From the IMG/VR virus record IMGVR_UViG_3300034170_000057: a stretch of 64,000 nucleotides of DNA; one strand, given 5' to 3'. Below the pieces are notes generated by a model, which was not told the origin of the DNA, searched no databases, and was given only the letters and a program-made list of their open reading frames with translations. The position numbers and the translations under genes are program-made. Source of the DNA: a virus. Its lineage: Duplodnaviria > Caudoviricetes. Of this stretch, positions 36,691-48,575 are shown in pieces. The stretch's first letter is position 1; the number at the start of each line of letters is the position of its first letter.

Positions 36691-37878
36691 ATGGCAACCG
36701 ATAAAGTGAAGAAAAAGAAAACATTCAAATCCGATACCGAAGAGAATGTGAAAAAGGCCAAGAAGAAAACCAGCGAAAAGTCTGGTGAAAAGCTGACGCT
36801 GGAAACTTCGCAATTGGCGAACCTGTACCGCCCGCACAAGCTGGAAGACGTGGTGGGCCAAGACCACGTGCTGTCTGCAATCGAGGGCATGTTCAAACGT
36901 CAAAAGGTTCCGTCGTCGCTGATGTTTAGCGGCCAATACGGTTGCGGTAAAACAACGTTCGCTCTGATTTTCAGTCGGCAAGTGAACTGCGAAAAACTGA
37001 ACCTGTGTGGCAAGTGCTTTAGCTGCAAATTCAGCAAGCACCCGGACGTTTCCTATTACGATTGCGCGGTCGATGGTTCGATTGCCAGTATCCGGAATTT
37101 GATTTCGGCTGCGAACAATGCCCCGGCTACCCGTAAGCGCGTTCTGATCCTCGACGAAGTACACGCCCTGCGCGGCCCGTCTGAAAAGGCGCTGCTGACC
37201 GCAACTGAAAACCCATCACCGAATACAATCTGGATTTTGTGTACCACGAATCCGGAAGCTGTCCACAAAACGTTGGTCAGCCGTTGCACGCATTTTCGTC
37301 TCAAGCAAATCGACATTCCGACGCTGGTTGATCGGATGAAAGTGATCGCTGAAGCGGAAGGCCAGAAGATCAAAAAGGACGCTGTAAAAGCGTTGACCAC
37401 AATTGCAGAATCCAGTAACGGCTCTATGCGTGAAGCAGTGTCGAAGCTGGATATTTTTCTTTCTATCCTCGCTTCGGGCAAGAAATATAATCCAGACGAC
37501 CTTAGTTCGTTCGTGGATATCGAAGCAGATTTGGACGAAACCTCTGCGCACTTCTTGGCTGCTGTATTCCAGCGCGATTACGTCAAGATGGTGCAGGCTG
37601 CCAAGGTGTGTGGTGGCGTGCGTGGCCTGCTGAATAAAACCCGCTGGCTGATCGAATACCGCATTGGCATTCACACCGGCATGAACAAGTACGCGCCGTA
37701 TAACGGCAAGCTGTTCGACGCACTGGCAAAGCAGCACAAAATCAAAACCGGTATCAAGGGTTTGGTTCAACTGCAAAATTTGCTGTGTGAAATCGAACTT
37801 AAACTGAACACCGCGACCCTTGATGAAACGGTTGTGTTCTATTCCGGCGTTGGTGCATTTTTATCCGAGAATGAGTGA
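36691..37878 (+). CDS. dnaX: clamp-loader AAA+ subunit, DNA polymerase III gamma/tau-like
   Basis: LYRPHKLEDVVGQ, GQYGCGKTT, CEKLNLCGKCFSC Zn module, ILDEVHAL, LVSRC; ATG 36691. Confidence 0.85.
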   Translation: MATDKVKKKKTFKSDTEENVKKAKKKTSEKSGEKLTLETSQLANLYRPHKLEDVVGQDHVLSAIEGMFKRQKVPSSLMFSGQYGCGKTTFALIFSRQVNCEKLNLCGKCFSCKFSKHPDVSYYDCAVDGSIASIRNLISAANNAPATRKRVLILDEVHALRGPSEKALLTATENPSPNTIWILCTTNPEAVHKTLVSRCTHFRLKQIDIPTLVDRMKVIAEAEGQKIKKDAVKALTTIAESSNGSMREAVSKLDIFLSILASGKKYNPDDLSSFVDIEADLDETSAHFLAAVFQRDYVKMVQAAKVCGGVRGLLNKTRWLIEYRIGIHTGMNKYAPYNGKLFDALAKQHKIKTGIKGLVQLQNLLCEIELKLNTATLDETVVFYSGVGAFLSENE

Positions 37879-40058
37879 TGACAGACCTGTCCGCAAATGA
37901 GGTAGAACTGCTGTACGCAATCAAGAATGATCAAGGACGCACCCTGACATTTTACGGGGATGAACTGCGTAAGCACCATACCCAACTGGGGCGGGCACTT
38001 GAACGTCTGAAACTCGTAGGTTATGTGCGGGCGACTGAAAATAATCGCCTGTTCATTTCTGATGCTTTCCAACAGCGTCAAAAGGCCGAACCGGAACCGG
38101 AATCTATCGAAGAAACCGAGGAAGAACTGGCGCCGCTTGTTGACGTACCTGAAGACCAACCGGTTTTGAAAAAAGAACCGGAAACTTCACCCGTTTATGA
38201 GGCTGGTATGAAAGTCACGCCTGAAATGATCGCAGAATATATGGCCGATGGTGTTGACCGTACCGCCGCCGTAATCGCGCAGCACTTCGGCCACGCCAAA
38301 GGCACTACGCTGATCAATCCGCTGCGTAGGCTGGTTACTGACGGCACGCTGGTGAAAACTGGCACCGTTTATTCGCTTCCTGCCTCGATGATTGTCACCG
38401 TTGCGGAAGTTGAAGCTATTGCGGAAATCGCGAAAGAAGTCGAGCCCGCAGCTGAAGCCGAGGTCGAGGAAACTGACGACGAACTGGCGGCCAGACTGAT
38501 TGCGGTTCTGGAAAAGGACATACCAGCAGTTGAACCAGCTGCCGAAGAAATTCCTGCGCGGATGGTGGAATACCACAACGAAACATTGGCCGAAGACCGC
38601 GAAGCCGCCAAGGCTCATGCAGAAAAACCACGCGGCAATCTGCCTACGCTTTTCAATGGCGAACTTCAGAATCACATTCTGAAAAAGCGAGATAGTTTCA
38701 CCGCTGCTGAAGTCATGCTGGATTTCGCAGAAACGCACTACATCGACAAAGAACGCTTTATGGAAATCTTTGAAGACGTGGTAGGTAGCGGCGACCTGCT
38801 GTGCTGGGATGGCGCCGAGTTTATCGACCCTACGCTGGAATACGTGCCGGGTAGCCAGTACATTGTGTTGCGCAAAACCGATCCGACCGACGCAATCGGA
38901 ATCATGGATGAATATTGCGAAAACATCCATGAACCCTACAAACTTTTCGATATCGTAGAAACGACGCATATTCATCACGGCGATGTGCTGCGTTATTTGG
39001 CTGATTTCGATTACGACGTGACTGATCCGGAACACATCGTAAAAGGCCCGCACACGTCTGACGTTTCATACTCGCAAAAGACGGCGGTTAGCGCAGGCCC
39101 CCGCGCCGGGATGCATGCACCGAAGTCCGGAACTGGGCCGTGGCCGGTGACATTCAAATCGGATTTCCGCACAAAGGAATTTACTGCACGTCCTAAAGTG
39201 GATCGCGATGCACCGCTGATTAGCTACGCGATGATCGAAAGCCTCAAGCCTCAAGACATTACCGATTTCCTCGACGGTGGTGTGAAGCTCGAAGTTTTCA
39301 TCCGTAAATTTAATCTGCATCCAGACGACGAAGCGCATATCGTCGAAGTTTTGCTGCTGACCGGCGTTGCAGAACTTACTTCTGTTGAGGGTGTGGATTG
39401 GCTGTTTCTGAAAGGCTGCAATGCTGCACCGGCCAGCCCGAAAGAAGACCGGTTAATTACTGCGCGTGACCTCGATCCGACGTTGCCTGAAAATGGCCCG
39501 TCCGCTTTTGCGTTGCAGCAGAAAACTGGTGATATCGGTGACTTGTCCGCGCTGATGAAAGATGCTCTGCACAGCATCACCAGTTCTGAAGAGGATCGGT
39601 TGACCCGAGAGAAAATCGGCATACTGCGTAATCAAATTCTCGACGCATCTATTGGCGCACCGTCCACCATTTTCATGAGTCGCGAACTGGCGGAGGAACT
39701 GGGTGTTCCTATCACTGAATGCACTTGTGAACATCGCATTTTTGGTGATGAACTGCACGAAGACTTGTGCCCGGTTGCAGAACTGGAAAACGATTTGCTC
39801 GCTAAAGCCCCTTTGGAAAGCGGGGAACGCGGAAACACCGGTCCTACAGGCCCCGTCAACCACGATGGCCCTACAGGCCCCCAAGGGACGCCGGGTTATT
39901 ACTCTATGGGGATGTGTCACAAAGTATTCTGTAAAGATAAACAGCCGGACAAGCAATGGTCGCTGACCCTGAAAATGTTGGAAGAACGCCTGCGCTTTGA
40001 ATACCAAGGCAGCGCTGCTGACCAACTCCACGAAATCCGAAAATATCTGGAACCGTAA
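37875..40058 (+). CDS. large acidic protein with tandem winged-helix-like modules
   Basis: QLGRALERLKLVGYV and TAAVIAQHFG..LRRLVTDGTLVKTG resemble wHTH recognition helices and wings. Confidence 0.6.
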   Translation: MMTDLSANEVELLYAIKNDQGRTLTFYGDELRKHHTQLGRALERLKLVGYVRATENNRLFISDAFQQRQKAEPEPESIEETEEELAPLVDVPEDQPVLKKEPETSPVYEAGMKVTPEMIAEYMADGVDRTAAVIAQHFGHAKGTTLINPLRRLVTDGTLVKTGTVYSLPASMIVTVAEVEAIAEIAKEVEPAAEAEVEETDDELAARLIAVLEKDIPAVEPAAEEIPARMVEYHNETLAEDREAAKAHAEKPRGNLPTLFNGELQNHILKKRDSFTAAEVMLDFAETHYIDKERFMEIFEDVVGSGDLLCWDGAEFIDPTLEYVPGSQYIVLRKTDPTDAIGIMDEYCENIHEPYKLFDIVETTHIHHGDVLRYLADFDYDVTDPEHIVKGPHTSDVSYSQKTAVSAGPRAGMHAPKSGTGPWPVTFKSDFRTKEFTARPKVDRDAPLISYAMIESLKPQDITDFLDGGVKLEVFIRKFNLHPDDEAHIVEVLLLTGVAELTSVEGVDWLFLKGCNAAPASPKEDRLITARDLDPTLPENGPSAFALQQKTGDIGDLSALMKDALHSITSSEEDRLTREKIGILRNQILDASIGAPSTIFMSRELAEELGVPITECTCEHRIFGDELHEDLCPVAELENDLLAKAPLESGERGNTGPTGPVNHDGPTGPQGTPGYYSMGMCHKVFCKDKQPDKQWSLTLKMLEERLRFEYQGSAADQLHEIRKYLEP

Positions 40059-42364
40059 TGATCGAGATTACCGGTAGCCGTTTTGGCGGTATCGTTTCGT
40101 ACAAAAAGGGTGAATTCGATTTCACTAACAACTGTGGCCTGACCACGGTTAGCGGGCACAACCGCGACTCGCAAATCTCCAAAGACCAAAACAACGGCGC
40201 CGGTAAATCTCTGCTGTTTTCTATGCTGCCTAACGTGCGTTTTGAACAGATGCCGTTGGCAGATACGAAAAAGAAAAACCGCATCCATTCGAAAGGCTCG
40301 TTCATCGAGTTCGACGTTAACAACCTCGGACATAAGTGGACGATCCGCCAGCAGGCCGGTGGCTATCAAATCTGGCGCGACGGCGAAGACCTGAAAGTTC
40401 GGGGCCAATCTAGTCAGCGTGCGCAAATTGAAGAAATCATTCCGATTACCCAAGACGAATGGTATTCCTATGTGCATCTGCAATCGCAAAAGAGATTGGA
40501 ATTCCTGTACGGCACACCACGTGCGCGAATGACCTATATCAGTGAGGTGTGGCGCCTCGATCAGTTCGACGTGCTGCGTCGGTTCTTTGAAAAGAAGATC
40601 GACGAAGTAAAAGTCGCACAGAACAAGTCGGATGCATTCAGCCACCAGCTGATGAATATCAACGATGCGCTGAATAAAAACGGCTGGAATAAGCAGCTGG
40701 AAAAGGAACTTAACGAAGCCAACGAAATCGTTAAAACCCAATCCAAGAAAGTCACGAAGTTGCAGACGCAGCGGCAGGAACTGAAAAGCCTGTCGAAGCA
40801 GGTCGAGTTCTATACGACCACGCGTGACAAGCTGAAAAAGTTGCAGGGTAAAATCCGATTCGATAAACCTACGCTGAAAGAGCAGTATCAACTGCACGAA
40901 GCGCTGGAGAAATTCGAAGAGGATAACGCCGAGTATGATCGCCGCTGTAAAAAGCTGGTGAAGAAACTCGACGAACTGGGCGACGGCGGTGATAGTAAAA
41001 CGCTGAAGAAACGTATCAAGGAAATCCGGAAAGAACTGGAAGGCCTCGAAACGGAAGACAAGCGTCTTGAGAAAGTCCGCGACAAGCACGACGCAGCTGT
41101 ACGCGAACTGGAAAACTTGGACGATCACGTCGATCCGGATTTGCGTAAATACTTGACGCAATGCAACAAAGAAAAAGTCGATCCAATGGAGGCGCTGAAA
41201 GAGGAATACAGCACCGCCAAAACGACGATGAAACTGGCTGACCTGCTACACGATCACGACGACGGCGCATGCCCGACGTGTATGCAGAAAATCAACCTGA
41301 AGGATTTGGAAAAGACCATTGCGAACGCCAAGAAGCGCAAAGGTAAAGCACACTCGATGATCCACGCGCTGGAACTGCGAATCACAAAGCAGGACAACAC
41401 GGATATCATCAAGGCCCTGAAGTTCGACGAACGTTCGTTCTACGCGGCTCGCAAGAAAATCAAGGCGCTCCGGGCTGAACTGGAAAAGCTCGAAGACCAA
41501 ATCGAAAACTCTGTGCGCTTCGATGAAATCACCGGGCAAATGGCTGACCTGAAAAAGCCTAAGCGGCCTAAGCAGGAACCGATTATCTCGGTTGAGAAAA
41601 TCGAACAGCAAGTGGAAATGATCGACGAAGCACGTCGCCTGAAAGCGCGGCTGTCTGAATTCGACGAAGCACCAGAAGACGACAATATCCTCAAGCGTCT
41701 GGCCGAAGTCGAAGCCAAGCTGGAAAAGGTCGAGAAAAAGTATTCCAAAGCTCACAAAGTAACCGTGCGCTATAGCTCGCTGCGTGCCGAATGGAAACTG
41801 CTGAAGAAACAGCGCGAAGAGGCCAGCGTCAAGGTCGAGGAATTTAAACCTCTGATCAAGAAAATGCAGCGCTTCAAAGTTCTGGTGAAAGCCTACAGCA
41901 ACAAAGGGCTGAAGCTGCACGCCATGCACGAAATCGTCTATGGCCTAGAGCAGAACTACAACAAATATGCACAGCTGATTTTCGCAGAGAATTTCAAGTT
42001 CAAAGTGGAAGCCAAAGAAGACGGCGTGCATATCATCGTAGACCGGGGCCAAGGCAACGTCAGCGATGTACGTTCGTTGTCCGGGGCCGAGTCCGATAGT
42101 TTCCGTCTGCTGCATTTCCTTGCGTGTGTGATCATGGCTAAGGACGCACGCCGGGTAAACTTGGCAATCCTCGACGAACCGGATGCACACATGGATGACG
42201 CGACTACCAGCCTATTCGTGGAGCGTTACATTCCGTTCCTGCGCAAGCTGGTGCCACAAGTGTTTATCATCACGCAAAAAGGTAAGCACCTGCACCCGAA
42301 TTGTTCTTACGTCACCGTTGAAAAACATAAGGGGGTTTCGAATGTCCGTTATGACGCGGCCTAG
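40058..42364 (+). CDS. sbcC: SbcC/Rad50-like (T4 gp46-like) SMC ATPase
   Basis: NGAGKS, Q-loop HLQSQ, coiled coils, Zn hook CPTC, LSGAE signature, ILDEPDAHMD. Confidence 0.9.
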   Translation: MIEITGSRFGGIVSYKKGEFDFTNNCGLTTVSGHNRDSQISKDQNNGAGKSLLFSMLPNVRFEQMPLADTKKKNRIHSKGSFIEFDVNNLGHKWTIRQQAGGYQIWRDGEDLKVRGQSSQRAQIEEIIPITQDEWYSYVHLQSQKRLEFLYGTPRARMTYISEVWRLDQFDVLRRFFEKKIDEVKVAQNKSDAFSHQLMNINDALNKNGWNKQLEKELNEANEIVKTQSKKVTKLQTQRQELKSLSKQVEFYTTTRDKLKKLQGKIRFDKPTLKEQYQLHEALEKFEEDNAEYDRRCKKLVKKLDELGDGGDSKTLKKRIKEIRKELEGLETEDKRLEKVRDKHDAAVRELENLDDHVDPDLRKYLTQCNKEKVDPMEALKEEYSTAKTTMKLADLLHDHDDGACPTCMQKINLKDLEKTIANAKKRKGKAHSMIHALELRITKQDNTDIIKALKFDERSFYAARKKIKALRAELEKLEDQIENSVRFDEITGQMADLKKPKRPKQEPIISVEKIEQQVEMIDEARRLKARLSEFDEAPEDDNILKRLAEVEAKLEKVEKKYSKAHKVTVRYSSLRAEWKLLKKQREEASVKVEEFKPLIKKMQRFKVLVKAYSNKGLKLHAMHEIVYGLEQNYNKYAQLIFAENFKFKVEAKEDGVHIIVDRGQGNVSDVRSLSGAESDSFRLLHFLACVIMAKDARRVNLAILDEPDAHMDDATTSLFVERYIPFLRKLVPQVFIITQKGKHLHPNCSYVTVEKHKGVSNVRYDAA

Positions 42365-42638
42365 TCAGAAAACGCATTGGATGTGCATTCCGCATCCGAC
42401 GCACTGGTGGATTCAAGCGTTGCAAATGGTTCACGGTTTCCACGTTCGTTGTGAAGTGGATTTGCCCAAGCAAGAATACTCGATGGCGATGCTGCCTACC
42501 ATTATCCGTCAAATGACCGAAGCCGTGGAAGTGGAAAAAGCACGCGTAATGCAACTGATCGAAGAGAATCACAAAGATGCACTCGAAGAAACCGAAACTG
42601 AAGTCGAGAAAAGCGGAGAAGTTCCAACGCGGCATTGA
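42342..42638 (+). CDS. hypothetical protein
   Basis: ATG 42342 (or 42351) near the sbcC stop. Confidence 0.5.
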   Translation: MSVMTRPSQKTHWMCIPHPTHWWIQALQMVHGFHVRCEVDLPKQEYSMAMLPTIIRQMTEAVEVEKARVMQLIEENHKDALEETETEVEKSGEVPTRH

Positions 42639-42744
42639 GCGTATGGAACGATACGCCGAAGCAACACGGGAACAGTTTGCACAGGCACTCGCACTGGGCA
42701 AAACCTTTGATCATACTGGGCCAATGGCCGGGAGAAACAAATGA
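42577..42744 (+). CDS. small hypothetical protein (55 aa), not in ORF track
   Basis: MHSKKPKLKSRKAEKFQRG...; stop overlaps next ATG. Confidence 0.35.
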   Translation: MHSKKPKLKSRKAEKFQRGIERMERYAEATREQFAQALALGKTFDHTGPMAGRNK

Positions 42745-42878
42745 ACAACAACGACCTGCGTATTCTGAAATTCCAGAACACCCTGACCTTTCATGCGGCC
42801 GCCGCGAACTTCCATTCCAAGGCCAACGGCATGACCAACTCCCTGAAAAAACAATTGAACAAAAAGCTCGGAAAATGA
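42741..42878 (+). CDS. small basic hypothetical protein (45 aa), not in ORF track
   Basis: GGGAG RBS; MNNNDLRILKFQNTL...KKLGK; ATGA overlap with next gene. Confidence 0.55.
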   Translation: MNNNDLRILKFQNTLTFHAAAANFHSKANGMTNSLKKQLNKKLGK

Positions 42879-43600
42879 TCGTCTACGGCTTCGCGCATAC
42901 AGCGCCGGATAAAGTTTTGGTGCATCTTCGTGGACTCGGAGTGCCCCGCGCACAAATCGCGATGCTAGGTCACGATTTCGAAGCTCGTAAGCACCTGATT
43001 TTTATTGATGCTGCGAGTTTCGAAGCCGGTCGCGATCTTGCTGAAGTAGCGAACTGCATTTGCTACGTGTGCGACGATCCAATTTCCCTTGCGCCCTACG
43101 ATTTAATTCCTGCTGATTACAAGGCGGCTGAAGACTTTCACGTGGACGGCTACACGCTCACGGAATTTAAAACGCTGCCGGTATTCAAACAGGTCACGGG
43201 CGCCCGGAAGAAATTCGATATGATTCAGGTAGCCAAGAAGCACGCTTCTAGCCAGCTAACATTCTTCACAAATTTCATGACGTTTATCTACAGCATGCCG
43301 ATGCAAACGCACCAACTCCCGGTGCGACAACTCGCGTGTAAATGGTTGGCCTCTACCGAGACTTATCGGCAACTCACAAACCGAATCGAGAAGCTGCGCA
43401 AAGGCGTTTTCCTGACTGACAAACAGGTCGAACGTTTGGTGGCTCTGCTTAGTTCGGATGTTGTCGCGATTTATCGTGAAGGTCTGCAAATGGAAGGCGA
43501 CGAAGACGAAGTGGCGATGAAATTGAAAATCAGCGCCTACGAAATGCGTTACATCCGTGCAATCAATCGGGGCGCTGCTGAAGCGTTGATAGACCCATGA
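42875..43600 (+). CDS. hypothetical protein with C-terminal HTH-like segment (possible clamp-loader delta-like subunit)
   Basis: ATG 42875; EDEVAMKLKISAYEMRYI. Confidence 0.55.
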   Translation: MIVYGFAHTAPDKVLVHLRGLGVPRAQIAMLGHDFEARKHLIFIDAASFEAGRDLAEVANCICYVCDDPISLAPYDLIPADYKAAEDFHVDGYTLTEFKTLPVFKQVTGARKKFDMIQVAKKHASSQLTFFTNFMTFIYSMPMQTHQLPVRQLACKWLASTETYRQLTNRIEKLRKGVFLTDKQVERLVALLSSDVVAIYREGLQMEGDEDEVAMKLKISAYEMRYIRAINRGAAEALIDP

Positions 43601-43749
43601 AAAACGTTGACGCCGAGAAACAAAAATTCAAGTTGCTGTGCCTGATAAAACACCGCTGGGCCAATTCGTCCGACCGTTGCAAGTGGGCGTGCTGGCGGTG
43701 TAAGCGCTGCAATAAAATCATTCACGTATTGGGAAGCGCACCGGAATGA
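43597..43749 (+). CDS. small Zn-ribbon-like protein (50 aa), not in ORF track
   Basis: LCLIKHRW...CKRCNK; ATGA overlaps at both ends. Confidence 0.6.
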   Translation: MKNVDAEKQKFKLLCLIKHRWANSSDRCKWACWRCKRCNKIIHVLGSAPE

Positions 43750-44264
43750 CCGATCAAAAATTCAATGTTGAAATCGAACGTGAACCTGAAACGGATTACG
43801 TTGGCGAAGCTCGGTGGTCGCCGTGTGCTGGTTTGGAACGCGGAACAATCGAAAATATTGGTTATGTCAAAGTGGATGATAGCGAGGCTCCGACTACCGA
43901 CGACTGGGAACGTATCACGAAACTCAAAATGGAAGCGATGGGAATTTCTGAAGAATTCCTGACGGGTGACGTACAGCTTATTCCTTTCTTTGATGGGGGT
44001 TTTGATAACCGTGTCACCGTATCACCAGCACGCAAGACATTCATAGACGAAACATTCCGCCGTGTAGTCAAGCGTACTATGCGCCCCAGCACGCACTGTA
44101 TCGCGACCCGCAACGGCGTCATGGCGTTAGGTAAGCGTTTCCGTTCTCTGCGACTGGCCCGCGTGTGGTACAAAAACATGATGGGCAATATCGAAATCAA
44201 ATTCGCGGATAAACCCGTGGTGCCTGATGAATCTTGGGTGCCGTTGGCAGAATATGGGAAATAA
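43746..44264 (+). CDS. modular hypothetical protein
   Basis: 172 aa; KMEAMGISEEFLTGD and FRSLRLARV modules. Confidence 0.7.
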   Translation: MTDQKFNVEIEREPETDYVGEARWSPCAGLERGTIENIGYVKVDDSEAPTTDDWERITKLKMEAMGISEEFLTGDVQLIPFFDGGFDNRVTVSPARKTFIDETFRRVVKRTMRPSTHCIATRNGVMALGKRFRSLRLARVWYKNMMGNIEIKFADKPVVPDESWVPLAEYGK

Positions 44265-44754
44265 ACTCGACACACGAGGTTGGGCTATGGTCGATCTTTC
44301 CGACAAGATCCTTTCGATTTCCACGCCACGTAAAGAAACACCGTGTCCGTTCGGCGGGCTTCTACCGAAGGTTAACCGGCGTTGGACAATGTGGAGTTTT
44401 CCGCCCACGTACCCGATGGATTTGCCGCAGCGGAAATGTGTGAAAGTTTCGGACGGTGAAGAAGAAATCATCGAGAAACAGCCGGTCGATGTGAGCGGGC
44501 TGGCAATCACCGGGCGAATCGGTTACATGACCGGGATGGTAATCCACTGTGATGCGTTCAGCGAACCTACGCCGCAATCCAAATACTATTTCATGCACAA
44601 GCACACGCCGAAGGGCGTTGAAGTGATCGTGTTTGAACGTGGTGTGGATAATGTGCATCACATGTACGAGTACCGAAGCGCCCGCGCCGCACGCGTCGAA
44701 ATGAAACGCTGCCGCATTCCTGAATACGCTTTCTATCGGACAAAAAGAAAATGA
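44254..44754 (+). CDS. hypothetical protein
   Basis: ATG 44254; YRSARAARV module. Confidence 0.65.
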   Translation: MGNKLDTRGWAMVDLSDKILSISTPRKETPCPFGGLLPKVNRRWTMWSFPPTYPMDLPQRKCVKVSDGEEEIIEKQPVDVSGLAITGRIGYMTGMVIHCDAFSEPTPQSKYYFMHKHTPKGVEVIVFERGVDNVHHMYEYRSARAARVEMKRCRIPEYAFYRTKRK

Positions 44755-45143
44755 AACGGCACGAATACATTACCATCTGCGACGAAACGAATAACCCGCC
44801 GCAAATGGTCGAAGAAAACAATCTGGCACTCGACTTTGTGATCACTACGCCGGAACCAGAACGTGCCCGCTATGAGTGCGTGTGTGACGCGATTTGCGAT
44901 AACCCGGACGAGGCACTCGCCATGCGTATTCGTTCTTACCTGTTGCGCGCACTCGGTCGCGAAATCAAACGCCTCGGACAAAATCCCGAAGTGATTTGCC
45001 AGCAGCTGAATATTTCGAACAATCGCCTTGACGATATTTTGCAGGGCCGCATAGAACGTCTGAGCCGCGACCAGTTGACCGGCATGTGCAAACGTATCGG
45101 CCTGAGCGTTGATCGCCTCATGATGGAGGTGATGGAAAAATGA
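44751..45143 (+). CDS. XRE-family HTH protein with tail-sheath-like N-terminal peptide
   Basis: ICDETNNPPQMVEENNL; ICQQLNISNNRLDDILQGRIERLSRDQL. Confidence 0.65.
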   Translation: MKRHEYITICDETNNPPQMVEENNLALDFVITTPEPERARYECVCDAICDNPDEALAMRIRSYLLRALGREIKRLGQNPEVICQQLNISNNRLDDILQGRIERLSRDQLTGMCKRIGLSVDRLMMEVMEK

Positions 45144-45556
45144 TCGGAAATATCGCACCGGAAGGCCTGCACAAATGGCAGCTGAAATTCGAGAATGTTC
45201 CGGCAGGACTCGACCTTCCTGAAATGGAAGTGCTAGCGAATGGTGCGCCGGGTATGCAGGGTATTTGTATCCAGATGAACCCACCGAACGACTGGCCGCG
45301 CACCACACAAAAAACAATCATGTCCATTACAGAAAGCAGTGTGCCGGTCGGTGCATTTCTTTCGCGCTGGCATGCGGCTGTCAAAGCCTCACACGAGGCA
45401 CCTTATCGGATCTACTCCACACGTCGTGGGGCATTCGTGGAATATCGTTACCCTTCCTTCCGATTACAATTCCGTTCGTTGCGGCTAGCTCAAGTGTTTG
45501 CGAAAAGCCACGCCATCGACTGGAACATCGAAACACTTGAGTATAAAAATGACTGA
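45140..45556 (+). CDS. modular hypothetical protein
   Basis: 138 aa; GGAGG RBS; FRSLRLAQV module. Confidence 0.7.
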   Translation: MIGNIAPEGLHKWQLKFENVPAGLDLPEMEVLANGAPGMQGICIQMNPPNDWPRTTQKTIMSITESSVPVGAFLSRWHAAVKASHEAPYRIYSTRRGAFVEYRYPSFRLQFRSLRLAQVFAKSHAIDWNIETLEYKND

Positions 45557-45926
45557 GCAAACTTACAGCAAAATGTACATTGCCGTTCTCGACGAAGCGC
45601 CTGATTACATGGTGCCTACGTTGGTTGCGCATTCCGTCCTGACCGCGCACGTCAAATTCGCAGAACCTAAACGCCTCGAATTTGGGCAACCCTCGAACAA
45701 GGAAATATATCTCGACTGGATGCAACACTCTTTTCGCAAGGTAACGTTGCGTGTGAACCGGCGTGAATTCGACAAAATCCGTGAGACGCTGACCTGTCAC
45801 CAAGGCCACGAAAACACCATCTGCAACGGCGAACCTTCGTGCCTTGTGGTGCTGCCTGTCCGAAGCGACAACGTGCCGAATGTTTTGAAATACGCAAAAC
45901 TTTGGAAACCAATCACCGGGGAATAA
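45549..45926 (+). CDS. Pth2-like peptidyl-tRNA hydrolase family protein
   Basis: KMYIAVLDEAP..LVAHSVL..YLDWMQHSFRKVTLRV..HENT. Confidence 0.6.
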   Translation: MTEQTYSKMYIAVLDEAPDYMVPTLVAHSVLTAHVKFAEPKRLEFGQPSNKEIYLDWMQHSFRKVTLRVNRREFDKIRETLTCHQGHENTICNGEPSCLVVLPVRSDNVPNVLKYAKLWKPITGE

Positions 45927-45927
45927 C

Positions 45928-46173
45928 ATGGCCCGCAAAGATGTGACCGATCGTATGGTAGTTGACGCTTACGTGTGGTGCAGCGAATTGCAGTTGCGCC
46001 CGCTGGAGTACCTGACTATCACGACTGGCGAGCCTGAAAAGGTTTGCTGGCGCGCAATGGAACGCTCTTACGACCACGGCTACATCGAGTGCGGCGTCGG
46101 CCTTAACAGTGGTTGGGCTACCGAAAAAGGTATGGGATTACTCAAGCGAGAAAAACATAATGTCGATGCATGA
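45928..46173 (+). CDS. hypothetical protein
   Basis: 81 aa; GGGGA RBS. Confidence 0.6.
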   Translation: MARKDVTDRMVVDAYVWCSELQLRPLEYLTITTGEPEKVCWRAMERSYDHGYIECGVGLNSGWATEKGMGLLKREKHNVDA

Positions 46174-46513
46174 ACTGTTGAAGCTGAAAATATCGTTTGA
46201 AGAAATCCGTATTCGTGGGCAGGAACCTATGGTCTACGTGGTCCGTGCCGAAGAGGATTCCGCGTGGATATTCGTCACCGAAATGATTGAGGGTGAATCA
46301 TGGGACGAAATCACACAGAAATATCCGACACTGATTGACCTACTGGCCTCTTTCTTCGTGTGTGAAGTTTGGGAAGCCGGGAGTCGCGGTGGTAATCGCA
46401 CTATCACTATTTCCAGCATTGAAGGTCACGAAGGTCTGTACGAATTCGATCCGGAAAATCCCCCGTCTTTGGATTGGGAAGCCACCCACAATCTTTCCGA
46501 GGTTTCAGCATGA
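46160..46513 (+). CDS. hypothetical protein
   Basis: ATG 46160. Confidence 0.6.
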   Translation: MSMHELLKLKISFEEIRIRGQEPMVYVVRAEEDSAWIFVTEMIEGESWDEITQKYPTLIDLLASFFVCEVWEAGSRGGNRTITISSIEGHEGLYEFDPENPPSLDWEATHNLSEVSA

Positions 46514-46821
46514 ATGCAGTTGTCGAAATGGACCGTGACGAACAAATCGAAATGCTGGCCGACCGCCTGAATCCACTGGATGTTCCGATGTTCCGGAAGC
46601 GTAGCGTGTACACCCCGCCCGCTGAAGCCTTCGACGAAATTCAGTACGAACGGAATCTCGGTGATGATTTCAATATTTACCACATCAAAACAAACGATAC
46701 GCTGGCAGAGATTGCCCCGCGTTTTGGTGTGGATGTTGATCGGCTCGCATTTATCAATAATATCGCTGATCCGAAAATCATTTACTTCGGTTCGTGTCTG
46801 CGCCTGAGACACAAATCATGA
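46510..46821 (+). CDS. LysM-domain protein
   Basis: YHIKTNDTLAEIAPRFGVDVDRLAFINNIADPKIIYFGSCLRL. Confidence 0.88.
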   Translation: MNAVVEMDRDEQIEMLADRLNPLDVPMFRKRSVYTPPAEAFDEIQYERNLGDDFNIYHIKTNDTLAEIAPRFGVDVDRLAFINNIADPKIIYFGSCLRLRHKS

Positions 46822-47525: not shown

Positions 47526-48575
47526 GTGGCAAACCCTTCGTTCGAAGCAGTATTCACCAGCGACTGGCATTTGACCGGCCTGAATAAACATTTCTCGGAT
47601 GGCGATGATCGCATTCTGGCCGAGGGTGAAAAGATCCTGCAATACGCGCTGAATAACGGTATTAAATACGTGATTATTCCGGGTGATATTTCTGATCACC
47701 CGAACCTGCCATTCGACACATACACCAAACTGTTTAACCTGCTCTACAAATACGACAAGCTGCTGACCATCATTTACGTGGCAGGCAATCACGACTTCGA
47801 AAACGTCGAGAAAATGTCGATGAATTTCATGTACCGTTTGAGCAAGACGCGTGCATTCAAAAACCTCAAAATCGTATTGAAACCGGAACGCGTGGAAATC
47901 GAAGGCGTGCCGGTAAACCTGTTGCCGTACCCGTGCCTGAAAACCCTGTCGAAAAAACAAGGTGCATTGAACGTCGCGCACGTGGAATACACCGGGGCAG
48001 TTGGTGACAATGGTCGCACGCTGAAAACAAAGCATGAATTGAAATCACATAAAAACGATTTCACAGTTAGCGGGCATATCCACCAATACCAGTACATGAA
48101 AGCGAAGCGCGCTCTGTATTGCGGGAATCCATTCCAAAAGAACTTTGGTGAGGCATTGCCTAAAGGGTTCGTGCATTTGCGTGCCACGTTGAACGGCGAC
48201 CGGATGGATGTGGAGCATAAATTCGTGGAGAATAAACCGGGGTTTACCCTGATTAATCTCCCTATTAATGACCTCAACGACCTGAAGAAACTGAAGCACG
48301 ATTCGAATATTCGTTACAAGCTGCATTTCGATCCTGAAGTGCCAATGCCTGCGGATCTAATGCTGCAATACCCGAACATTACCGGTGGTATTCATTGGTC
48401 TGGCGGTAAAGCAATTGATAGCTCGGAAATAGAAACAATTAAAATTGAACGGGCAGATATTGATCCTGAATTCGGATTGGAAGCATTCCTCGGTGCGGAA
48501 GGTTTGGATTTAAAAGAAATCAAATGGACGATGAAAGAGGTTAAGGCAGCCAAAAATGTCCTTGGGTTTTCCTGA
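47526..48575 (+). CDS. sbcD: SbcD/Mre11-like (T4 gp47-like) nuclease
   Basis: TSDWHL, PGDISD, AGNHD, SGHIH metallophosphoesterase motifs. Confidence 0.9.
   Translation: MANPSFEAVFTSDWHLTGLNKHFSDGDDRILAEGEKILQYALNNGIKYVIIPGDISDHPNLPFDTYTKLFNLLYKYDKLLTIIYVAGNHDFENVEKMSMNFMYRLSKTRAFKNLKIVLKPERVEIEGVPVNLLPYPCLKTLSKKQGALNVAHVEYTGAVGDNGRTLKTKHELKSHKNDFTVSGHIHQYQYMKAKRALYCGNPFQKNFGEALPKGFVHLRATLNGDRMDVEHKFVENKPGFTLINLPINDLNDLKKLKHDSNIRYKLHFDPEVPMPADLMLQYPNITGGIHWSGGKAIDSSEIETIKIERADIDPEFGLEAFLGAEGLDLKEIKWTMKEVKAAKNVLGFS

What the first reader, a model, noticed from the sequence alone, without database searches (positions are those of the whole stretch)
44751..45143. Tail-sheath CDETNN peptide fused to an XRE helix-turn-helix
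YITICDETNNPPQMVEENNLALDFVI closely follows the T4 gp18-type sheath C-terminal motif (recalled as VVCDTTNNTPSVIDRNEF). The rest of the 130-aa protein is an XRE/HigA-like HTH. I know of no described sheath-peptide/DNA-binding fusion; it could couple tail assembly to transcription or be a decoy.
Basis: partly seen in the sequence, partly recalled or inferred. Interest (0 to 1): 0.7.

Follow-up and report, generated by a model that had tools for sequence, protein, structure and literature searches.

The report
Sheath "handshake" hairpin fused to HTH
A jumbo-phage DNA-binding protein starts with a conserved copy of the small beta-hairpin that tail-sheath subunits use to grip one another, which suggests, but does not show, a link between gene regulation and tail assembly.

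Summary
ORF 44751-45143 (+) encodes a 130-aa protein. Residues 52-121 are an XRE-type HTH_37 domain. Residues ~3-33 are homologous to the conserved C-terminal hairpin of contractile-sheath proteins; T4 gp18 has it at about 604-635.

A profile of the 36 N-terminal residues finds verified sheaths among 1.84 billion proteins at E down to 4e-6. The motif is invariant at the same key residues as in sheaths (C, D, N, N, D). It is kept in nine metagenomic homologues and in Pseudomonas phage Lu11.

In HRDY3-like relatives the same hairpin sits on a different protein of the same operon. It is therefore a portable, selected module, not a relic. In solved myophage tails this two-stranded sheet is the platform that accepts the N- and C-arms of the next sheath ring.

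Best reading, inferred and not shown: a disordered N-terminal tag docks by beta-sheet augmentation onto free sheath arms or the tail terminator. This would tie the regulator to the state of tail assembly. No toxin partner, no defence-family hit and no published description were found.

The scan flagged the same fusion earlier on other DNA (e1-5377107). I rate it a new variant of a known kind, with function untested.

The parts
44751..45143 (+). CDS of the 130-aa hairpin-HTH protein (P0001)
   Evidence: ORF list and translation. Nine homologues of 71-93% identity. The ATG overlaps the upstream stop codon.
44757..44849 (+). Residues 3-33: sheath-derived beta-hairpin module (strand, CDETNNPP turn, strand)
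   Evidence: Sheath hits. Residue-by-residue alignment with sheaths. It maps onto strands E491-497 and E513-521 of the AF2 sheath model. It is disordered in the monomer model, pLDDT below 50. Window versus L012: pN 0.27, pS 0.84, so conservation is at the protein level.
44850..44903 (+). Variable linker, residues 34-51
   Evidence: Alignment A2/A3. For alignment columns 32-47 (P0001 residues 32-45) substitution is near neutral, pN 0.41 versus pS 0.51. The linker is about 50 aa longer in Lu11. A related strain's contig replaces 44801-44893 with 97 unlike letters.
44904..45113 (+). HTH_37 (XRE-type) DNA-binding domain, residues 52-121
   Evidence: Pfam PF13744 at E 9.5e-9, above the cut-off. AF2 helices at pLDDT 80-92. 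The best fold matches are XRE regulators such as 2a6c and ClgR. pN 0.05.
43746..44264 (+). Operon gene 2: 172-aa protein of the GISxEFL / FRSLRLARVW family. In HRDY3-like phages its orthologue carries the hairpin.
   Evidence: blastp to the C-terminal part of the HRDY3 182-aa protein (E 1.4e-7) and to P0074.
44227..44754 (+). Operon gene 3: 175-aa paralogue-like protein (YRSARAARV). It is absent in a related strain.
   Evidence: Orthologues L012_9495 and L036_5425. The X2 contig skips 44277-44737.
45140..45556 (+). Operon gene 5: 138-aa protein with an FRSLRLAQVF motif
   Evidence: Orthologues in HRDY3, L012 and L036.
45498..45926 (+). Homologue of the N-terminal part of the Lu11/HRDY3 endolysin. 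It always lies just downstream of the hairpin/HTH genes.
   Evidence: blastp 67% identity to residues 3-115 of the endolysins. phrog_5822 at E 1e-58. Synteny.
40058..42364 (+). SbcC-like gene bounding the block upstream
   Evidence: phrog_77 at E 3.8e-66. Annotated as such in HRDY3 and Lu11.
47526..48575 (+). SbcD-like (Metallophos) gene bounding the block downstream
   Evidence: Pfam PF00149 at E 1.3e-10. HRDY3 and Lu11 annotation.

Best explanation
P0001 is a phage XRE-type (HTH_37) DNA-binding protein. Its first ~33 residues are a stand-alone copy of the two-stranded beta-sheet of sheath domain I. [quoted passage not shown] Two virion proteins work through the same interface: the sheath initiator offers an equivalent platform, and the tail terminator's hairpin binds the platform of the last ring. 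The tag is disordered on its own. It most likely folds on binding by beta-sheet augmentation, either to the free arms of unpolymerised sheath subunits or to the terminator hairpin. The regulator and its operon partners would then be titrated or relocated according to the sheath pool or the state of tail assembly. Shown here: homology to the sheath hairpin, its conservation, its portability within the operon, and the HTH domain. Inferred: binding to the sheath or terminator. Speculative: the regulatory output, for example timing of the adjacent lysis gene.
For: Homology to the sheath hairpin is statistically supported.

The residues invariant in the peptide (C10, D11, N14, N15, D28) are the ones invariant in 26 sheaths (C498, D499, N502, N503, D516). 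This points to the same structural constraints.

The AF2 sheath model shows two helices, then strand 491-497, a turn, strand 513-521, and then a floppy C-arm. The peptide covers exactly that hairpin.

The literature describes this domain-I two-stranded sheet as the acceptor of the N- and C-arms. The sheath initiator forms the same handshake with the arms of the first ring, and the terminator hairpin binds the domain-I sheet of the last ring (phi92 PMC13450770; XM1 PMC10457771; P1 PMC10304247).

The N-terminus is disordered in the monomer model.

The hairpin is more conserved between this protein and Lu11_0114 than the HTH is. Synonymous sites are saturated while pN is 0.27.

The hairpin sits on operon gene 4 (the HTH) here, in L012 and in Lu11. 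It sits on gene 2 in HRDY3, L013 and L036. It is therefore an autonomous, selected module.

Other non-sheath proteins also carry it, some twice.
Against: No binding has been shown. No cognate sheath could be paired with certainty, because the window holds no sheath gene. The hairpin modules resemble each other and the sheath-family consensus at least as much as they resemble the local sheath (13 of 27 identical to sheath 1, 10 of 27 to sheath 2; my hand count from the alignment). There is thus no sign of co-evolution with the phage's own sheath. The gene lies in a replication/recombination block, not among tail genes. No operator and no expression timing are known.
Confidence: 0.4

Rival explanations
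1. The hairpin was exapted as a self-association or intra-operon interaction element. Two hairpins could form a four-stranded sheet that tetramerises HTH dimers, or the hairpin could bind the FRSLR-family paralogues. In this reading it no longer has anything to do with the sheath.
For: The tag moves between gene 2 and gene 4 of one operon. This fits proteins that work together. Some proteins carry two copies (P0012, P0133, P0063). There is no detectable co-evolution with the local sheath.
Against: The residues kept are those kept in sheaths. Lu11 keeps the hairpin-HTH fusion although it lacks the FRSLR paralogues. The AF2 monomer model gives no packing of the tag.
Confidence: 0.22
2. Decoy or poison. 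The tag copies the most conserved epitope of contractile sheaths. It could occupy a host immune sensor that recognises sheath. Alternatively it could cap the arms of foreign sheaths (host R-type tailocin, T6SS, a co-infecting myophage) and block their polymerisation.
For: The tag matches the family consensus (CDETNNPP) rather than the phage's own sheath. It lies among non-structural genes. Many unrelated small proteins carry it.
Against: There is no PADLOC or anti-defence family hit. My literature search found no sheath-sensing defence. The search that found consensus-like copies is biased towards the query profile. A fusion to a DNA-binding domain is not explained.
Confidence: 0.13
3. Assembly chaperone or cap. 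The hairpin holds sheath arms to prevent premature polysheath formation of the two-component sheath, and the HTH is a passenger.
For: Relatives of this phage (Lu11, PaBG group) have two sheath proteins (PMC7412058). Recombinant sheaths polymerise spontaneously (PMC6357053 abstract). The tag works on different carriers.
Against: A regulator-type protein is unlikely to match sheath abundance. The HTH is under much stronger purifying selection than the tag (pN 0.05 versus 0.27).
Confidence: 0.12
4. A fragment of the sheath gene captured by illegitimate recombination with no present function, or a chance resemblance.
For: The block is a hot spot of gene gain and loss.
Against: The E-values argue against chance. 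The tag is kept across lineages whose HTH has fallen to about 27% identity, with saturated synonymous sites. It is retained after transfer to another carrier.
Confidence: 0.04

Closest known systems
HigA2-type antitoxins and other HTH_37 (PF13744) XRE regulators
   Same: A C-terminal HTH_37 domain preceded by a disordered N-terminal segment. In HigA2 (my own knowledge: Hadzi et al. 2017, Vibrio cholerae HigBA2) that segment folds on binding a protein partner and modulates repression.
   Different: No RelE/HigB-like toxin or any conserved partner gene lies next to it. The neighbours differ between lineages. The N-terminal segment is sheath-derived.
Domain I two-stranded sheet of contractile sheath proteins (Pfam Phage_sheath_1C; T4 gp18 about 604-635)
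   Same: Homologous sequence with the same invariant residues.
   Different: Only the hairpin is present. The two helices, the subtilisin-like domain and the N- and C-arms are missing, and Pfam Phage_sheath_1C does not score on P0001.
Sheath initiator (T4 gp25 / TssE / phi92 gp139) and tail terminator hairpins
   Same: These are non-sheath proteins that join the handshake sheet by beta-augmentation (PMC13450770, PMC10304247). This is the proposed way of working.
   Different: They are baseplate or neck structural proteins with full folds. The protein here is a DNA-binding protein with a bare hairpin, and no family hit to them was found.
T4 late-transcription factors gp33 and gp55, which carry the clamp-binding tail of the DNA polymerase (my own knowledge)
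   Same: A short peptide copied from a component of a machine is attached to a transcription factor and couples transcription to that machine.
   Different: A different machine (sliding clamp) and a different peptide type. The coupling here is hypothetical.

Membership tests
XRE-type HTH_37 (PF13744) | Profile match above Pfam's gathering score | tested here: met
   35.4 bits against a cut-off of 27, residues 52-121. phrog_2339 'HTH DNA binding protein' at E 8e-8.
XRE-type HTH_37 (PF13744) | Five-helix XRE fold | tested here: met
   AF2 helices from 54 to 129 at pLDDT 80-92. Top Foldseek matches are XRE regulators at probability 1.0, although E is only 0.07. PDB 2a6c at E 2e-5 by sequence profile.
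HigA2-type antitoxin | Adjacent cognate RelE/HigB-family toxin gene | tested here: not met
   The neighbours have no Pfam, NCBIfam or PADLOC toxin hit and are not conserved between lineages.
HigA2-type antitoxin | Disordered N-terminal partner-binding segment before the HTH | tested here: inconclusive
   Residues 1-33 have pLDDT below 50. The partner is unknown.
Contractile tail sheath (PF04984 / PF17482) | Complete domain I (helices, hairpin, arms) and the subtilisin-like domain | tested here: not met
   Only about 30 residues match. No Pfam sheath hit at E<=1. The protein has 130 aa.
Contractile tail sheath (PF04984 / PF17482) | Conserved hairpin signature (aromatic-x-V/I-x-C-D-x-x-N-N ... 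L-D-hydrophobic) | tested here: met
Sheath initiator gp25/TssE | Domain-I-like fold docked on baseplate wedges | tested here: not met
   No family hit. Only a bare hairpin is present. Virion location cannot be tested here.
Sheath-binding by beta-augmentation (way of working, not a family) | Physical binding to sheath arms or to the terminator | not testable with these tools
   It needs biochemistry, or modelling with two sheath copies.

The most novel reading that the evidence does not exclude
The hairpin is a sensor of free sheath subunits and makes this operon a morphogenetic checkpoint. When sheath protein accumulates, or when tails are completed, the HTH regulator is sequestered or released. 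This would set the timing of late functions such as the endolysin gene that always lies just downstream. More broadly, the sheath handshake hairpin would be a portable 'sheath-docking tag' used by many phage proteins.
Probability: 0.15. Interest if true: 0.85.

Novelty: new variant of a known kind. Interest (0 to 1): 0.62.

Why it matters
I know of no phage transcription factor that reads the state of tail assembly. A regulator carrying the sheath's own polymerisation interface would be a directly testable candidate, because Lu11 and HRDY3 are cultured. Independently of function, the result defines a 30-residue sheath-derived module that recurs on unrelated non-structural proteins. Such a module could serve as a natural tag for docking cargo onto contractile sheaths.

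Tried and rejected
Complex prediction: sheath P0168 (alignment A5) with residues 1-50 of P0001 (alignment A3) scored 0.00, which is no verdict and not evidence either way.

Sheath gene in the window: none found. No whole genome is held for the window, and the 311-kb relative contig could not be searched.

'Mini-sheath lacking the hairpin' (lead from e1-5377107): Lu11 and HRDY3 each hold only two complete sheath genes plus the peptide. The lead was therefore not reproduced there, and I could not test it on that other genome.

Portal-like hit: the 28-aa match of ORF 43746 (phrog_16240, E 4e-4) found no counterpart when the homologous HRDY3 protein was searched against the HRDY3 and Lu11 genomes. 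I treat it as unconfirmed.

Promoters and terminators: sigma-70 and terminator scans were at or below chance. The annotated Lu11 promoter word was not found nearby.

Family and literature searches: PADLOC and NCBIfam gave nothing. The Atlas look-up of ORF 43746 was uninformative. The literature has no occurrence of the motif and no sheath-sensing defence among the papers listed.

Expression: an RNA-labelled peat library holds the stretch as one 17-kb contig. It is probably the source sample, so it is no evidence of transcription.

Other carriers: contigs of P0158 and P0087 were too short to give context.

Spurious hits: matches of the HTH profile to designed LRR proteins are repeats of a short LNxSNNxL word.

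Full report
**1. The observation**

The ORF at 44751-45143 (+) is real and encodes 130 aa. Its ATG overlaps the TGA of the upstream ORF (ATGA).

Pfam places an HTH_37 domain at residues 52-121 (E 9.5e-9, above the gathering score). An AF2 model built on ten homologues is confidently helical from residue 35 to 129. Residues 1-33 are left disordered at pLDDT below 50. Fold and sequence searches of the PDB return XRE-family regulators.

T4 gp18 carries it at about residues 604-635 of 659.

**2. Is the sheath resemblance more than chance?**

Yes, on four grounds:

- PHROG tail-sheath family phrog_10581 hits residues 5-32 at E 0.002, at the C-terminal end of the profile.
- The same family, searched over whole genomes of the two nearest cultured relatives, finds their two sheath genes each. 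It also finds the N-terminus of Lu11_0114 (E 7.7e-8) and the N-terminus of an HRDY3 ORF next to the HTH gene (E 6.3e-5).
- A profile of the first 36 residues of ten homologues, scored against 1.84 billion proteins, gives 237 hits at E<=1e-3. The long hits are true sheaths by Pfam, with the match 25-55 residues before their C-terminus.
- About 96 of the 149 other listed hits (the 150 listed minus the family's own representative P0007) show sheath context around the motif by an ad hoc HMM test.

**3. Conservation**

Nine metagenomic homologues of 71-93% identity keep I9, C10, D11, T13, N14, N15, P16, P17, L25, D28 and V30.

Lu11_0114 shares 17 of 24 residues in the motif, although its HTH is only about 27% identical and its linker is about 50 aa longer.

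Between the window and the 311-kb relative contig, synonymous sites in the hairpin are saturated (pS 0.84) while pN is 0.27. The linker is nearly neutral. The HTH is strongly constrained at pN 0.05. Conservation is therefore at the protein level.

The invariant residues coincide with those invariant in an alignment of 26 sheaths: C498, D499, N502, N503 and D516.

**4. What the motif is in a sheath**

An AF2 model of a sheath from this phage group (pLDDT 85) shows two long helices, then strand 491-497. A turn follows, carrying CDxxNN and a short helix, then strand 513-521. The N-arm (1-25) and C-arm (524-539) are floppy. P0001 residues 3-33 map onto exactly this hairpin.

Cryo-EM papers describe the two-stranded sheet of domain I as the acceptor of the 'handshake'. 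[quoted passage not shown] The sheath initiator forms the same handshake with the arms of the first ring. The terminator's hairpin binds the domain-I sheet of the last ring (PMC13450770; PMC10457771; PMC10304247). That the motif equals that sheet is an inference from the model and these descriptions.

**5. Context**

The window is part of a jumbo phage of the Lu11/HRDY3 ('Lupandier') group. This group has a two-component sheath (PMC7412058).

The gene lies in a co-directional string between an SbcC-like gene (40058-42364) and an SbcD-like gene (47526-48575), next to an endolysin homologue. The window holds no sheath gene.

Comparison of five relatives shows an orthologous block: a phrog_18876 protein, gene 2 (GISxEFL / FRSLRxARxW family), gene 3, gene 4 (HTH) and gene 5, followed by the endolysin.

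The hairpin occupies different genes in different lineages:

| Lineage | Where the hairpin sits |
|---|---|
| Window and L012 clade | Gene 4, the HTH |
| Lu11, which lacks genes 2, 3 and 5 | Gene 4, the HTH |
| HRDY3 and IMG/VR contig L013 | Gene 2; a 93-96-aa HTH gene follows directly |
| 320-kb contig L036 | Gene 2, separated from the HTH by gene 3 |

A related strain lacks gene 3 altogether. The hairpin is thus an autonomous module kept under selection on different carriers of one operon.

**6. Spread beyond this operon**

The profile search also returned non-sheath carriers:

- proteins with two copies (P0012, P0133, P0063);
- proteins with an internal copy (P0078, P0087);
- an 85-aa protein of Dickeya phage JA29 near primase and Dam genes;
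- many 85-160-aa mini-proteins made of the preceding sheath helix plus the hairpin, some with Tat-like signals.

No paper with the motif was found.

**7. Mechanism**

These points are shown: the module is sheath-derived, selected and portable; it is disordered when alone; and it is attached here to a DNA-binding domain.

This is inferred (confidence about 0.4): the module docks by beta-sheet augmentation on the ligands of the natural platform. Those are the free arms of unassembled sheath subunits or the terminator hairpin. The regulator would then respond to the sheath pool or to tail completion.

The regulatory target is speculative. The constant neighbourhood of the endolysin gene is the only hint.

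Rivals are intra-operon or self-association, a decoy or poison of foreign sheaths or sensors, an anti-polysheath chaperone, and a relic. The relic reading is largely excluded by conservation.

The architecture resembles HigA2-type antitoxins, which combine a disordered partner-binding N-terminus with HTH_37. However, no toxin gene is present, so I do not file it there.

**8. Verdict**

This is a new domain architecture built from two known parts, with an attractive but untested function. The same fusion was noted earlier in this scan on another genome (e1-5377107).

Noticed in passing
window 43746-44264, 44227-44754, 45140-45556: Three neighbouring ORFs share a C-terminal (F/Y)RSxRxA(R/Q)V motif, and two of them also a GISxEFL motif. 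This is a paralogous family with no Pfam, NCBIfam or PADLOC hit. Orthologues in HRDY3-like phages carry the sheath hairpin at their N-terminus.
   Followed up: partly
window 45498-45926 and 45928-46821: The endolysin homologue covers only the N-terminal ~115 residues of the 208-214-aa Lu11/HRDY3/L036 endolysins and lacks their LysM end. Two extra ORFs (45928-46173, 46109-46513) follow. Then comes a separate 115-aa LysM protein (46474-46821), orthologous to HRDY3's 108-aa LysM protein.
   Followed up: partly
window 44277-44737 and 44801-44893: A contig from a related strain (biofilm metagenome, 95-99% identical elsewhere) lacks 44277-44737, most of gene 3. It also replaces 44801-44893, the second half of the hairpin plus the linker, with 97 unlike letters. 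The block is a hot spot of indels.
   Followed up: partly
window 42635-43600: The listed TTG start gives 321 aa, but all orthologues (237-242 aa, phrog_18876) begin at residue 81. The true start is probably the ATG near 42875.
   Followed up: partly
proteins P0015, P0021, P0049, P0088: These mini-proteins of 130-170 aa have a twin-arginine-like signal (RRxFLK) followed by the sheath domain-I helix (ND..TR) and the hairpin. An exported sheath-like module is unexpected.
   Followed up: no
proteins P0012, P0133, P0063; L038:5001-6239: These non-sheath proteins carry two copies of the sheath hairpin. P0133 also has a C-terminal coiled coil.
   Followed up: no
L033:2357-2614 (Dickeya phage JA29_015): An 85-aa protein of a phage from the same group consists of a short helix, the hairpin and one more strand. 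It is encoded between primase-like and Dam methylase genes.
   Followed up: partly
window 37875-40058: This 727-aa ORF upstream of SbcC has a short collagen-like stretch (residues 649-675, hitting tail-fibre PHROGs weakly) and a faint MarR-like N-terminus. Its orthologues vary in length from 688 to 770 aa.
   Followed up: no
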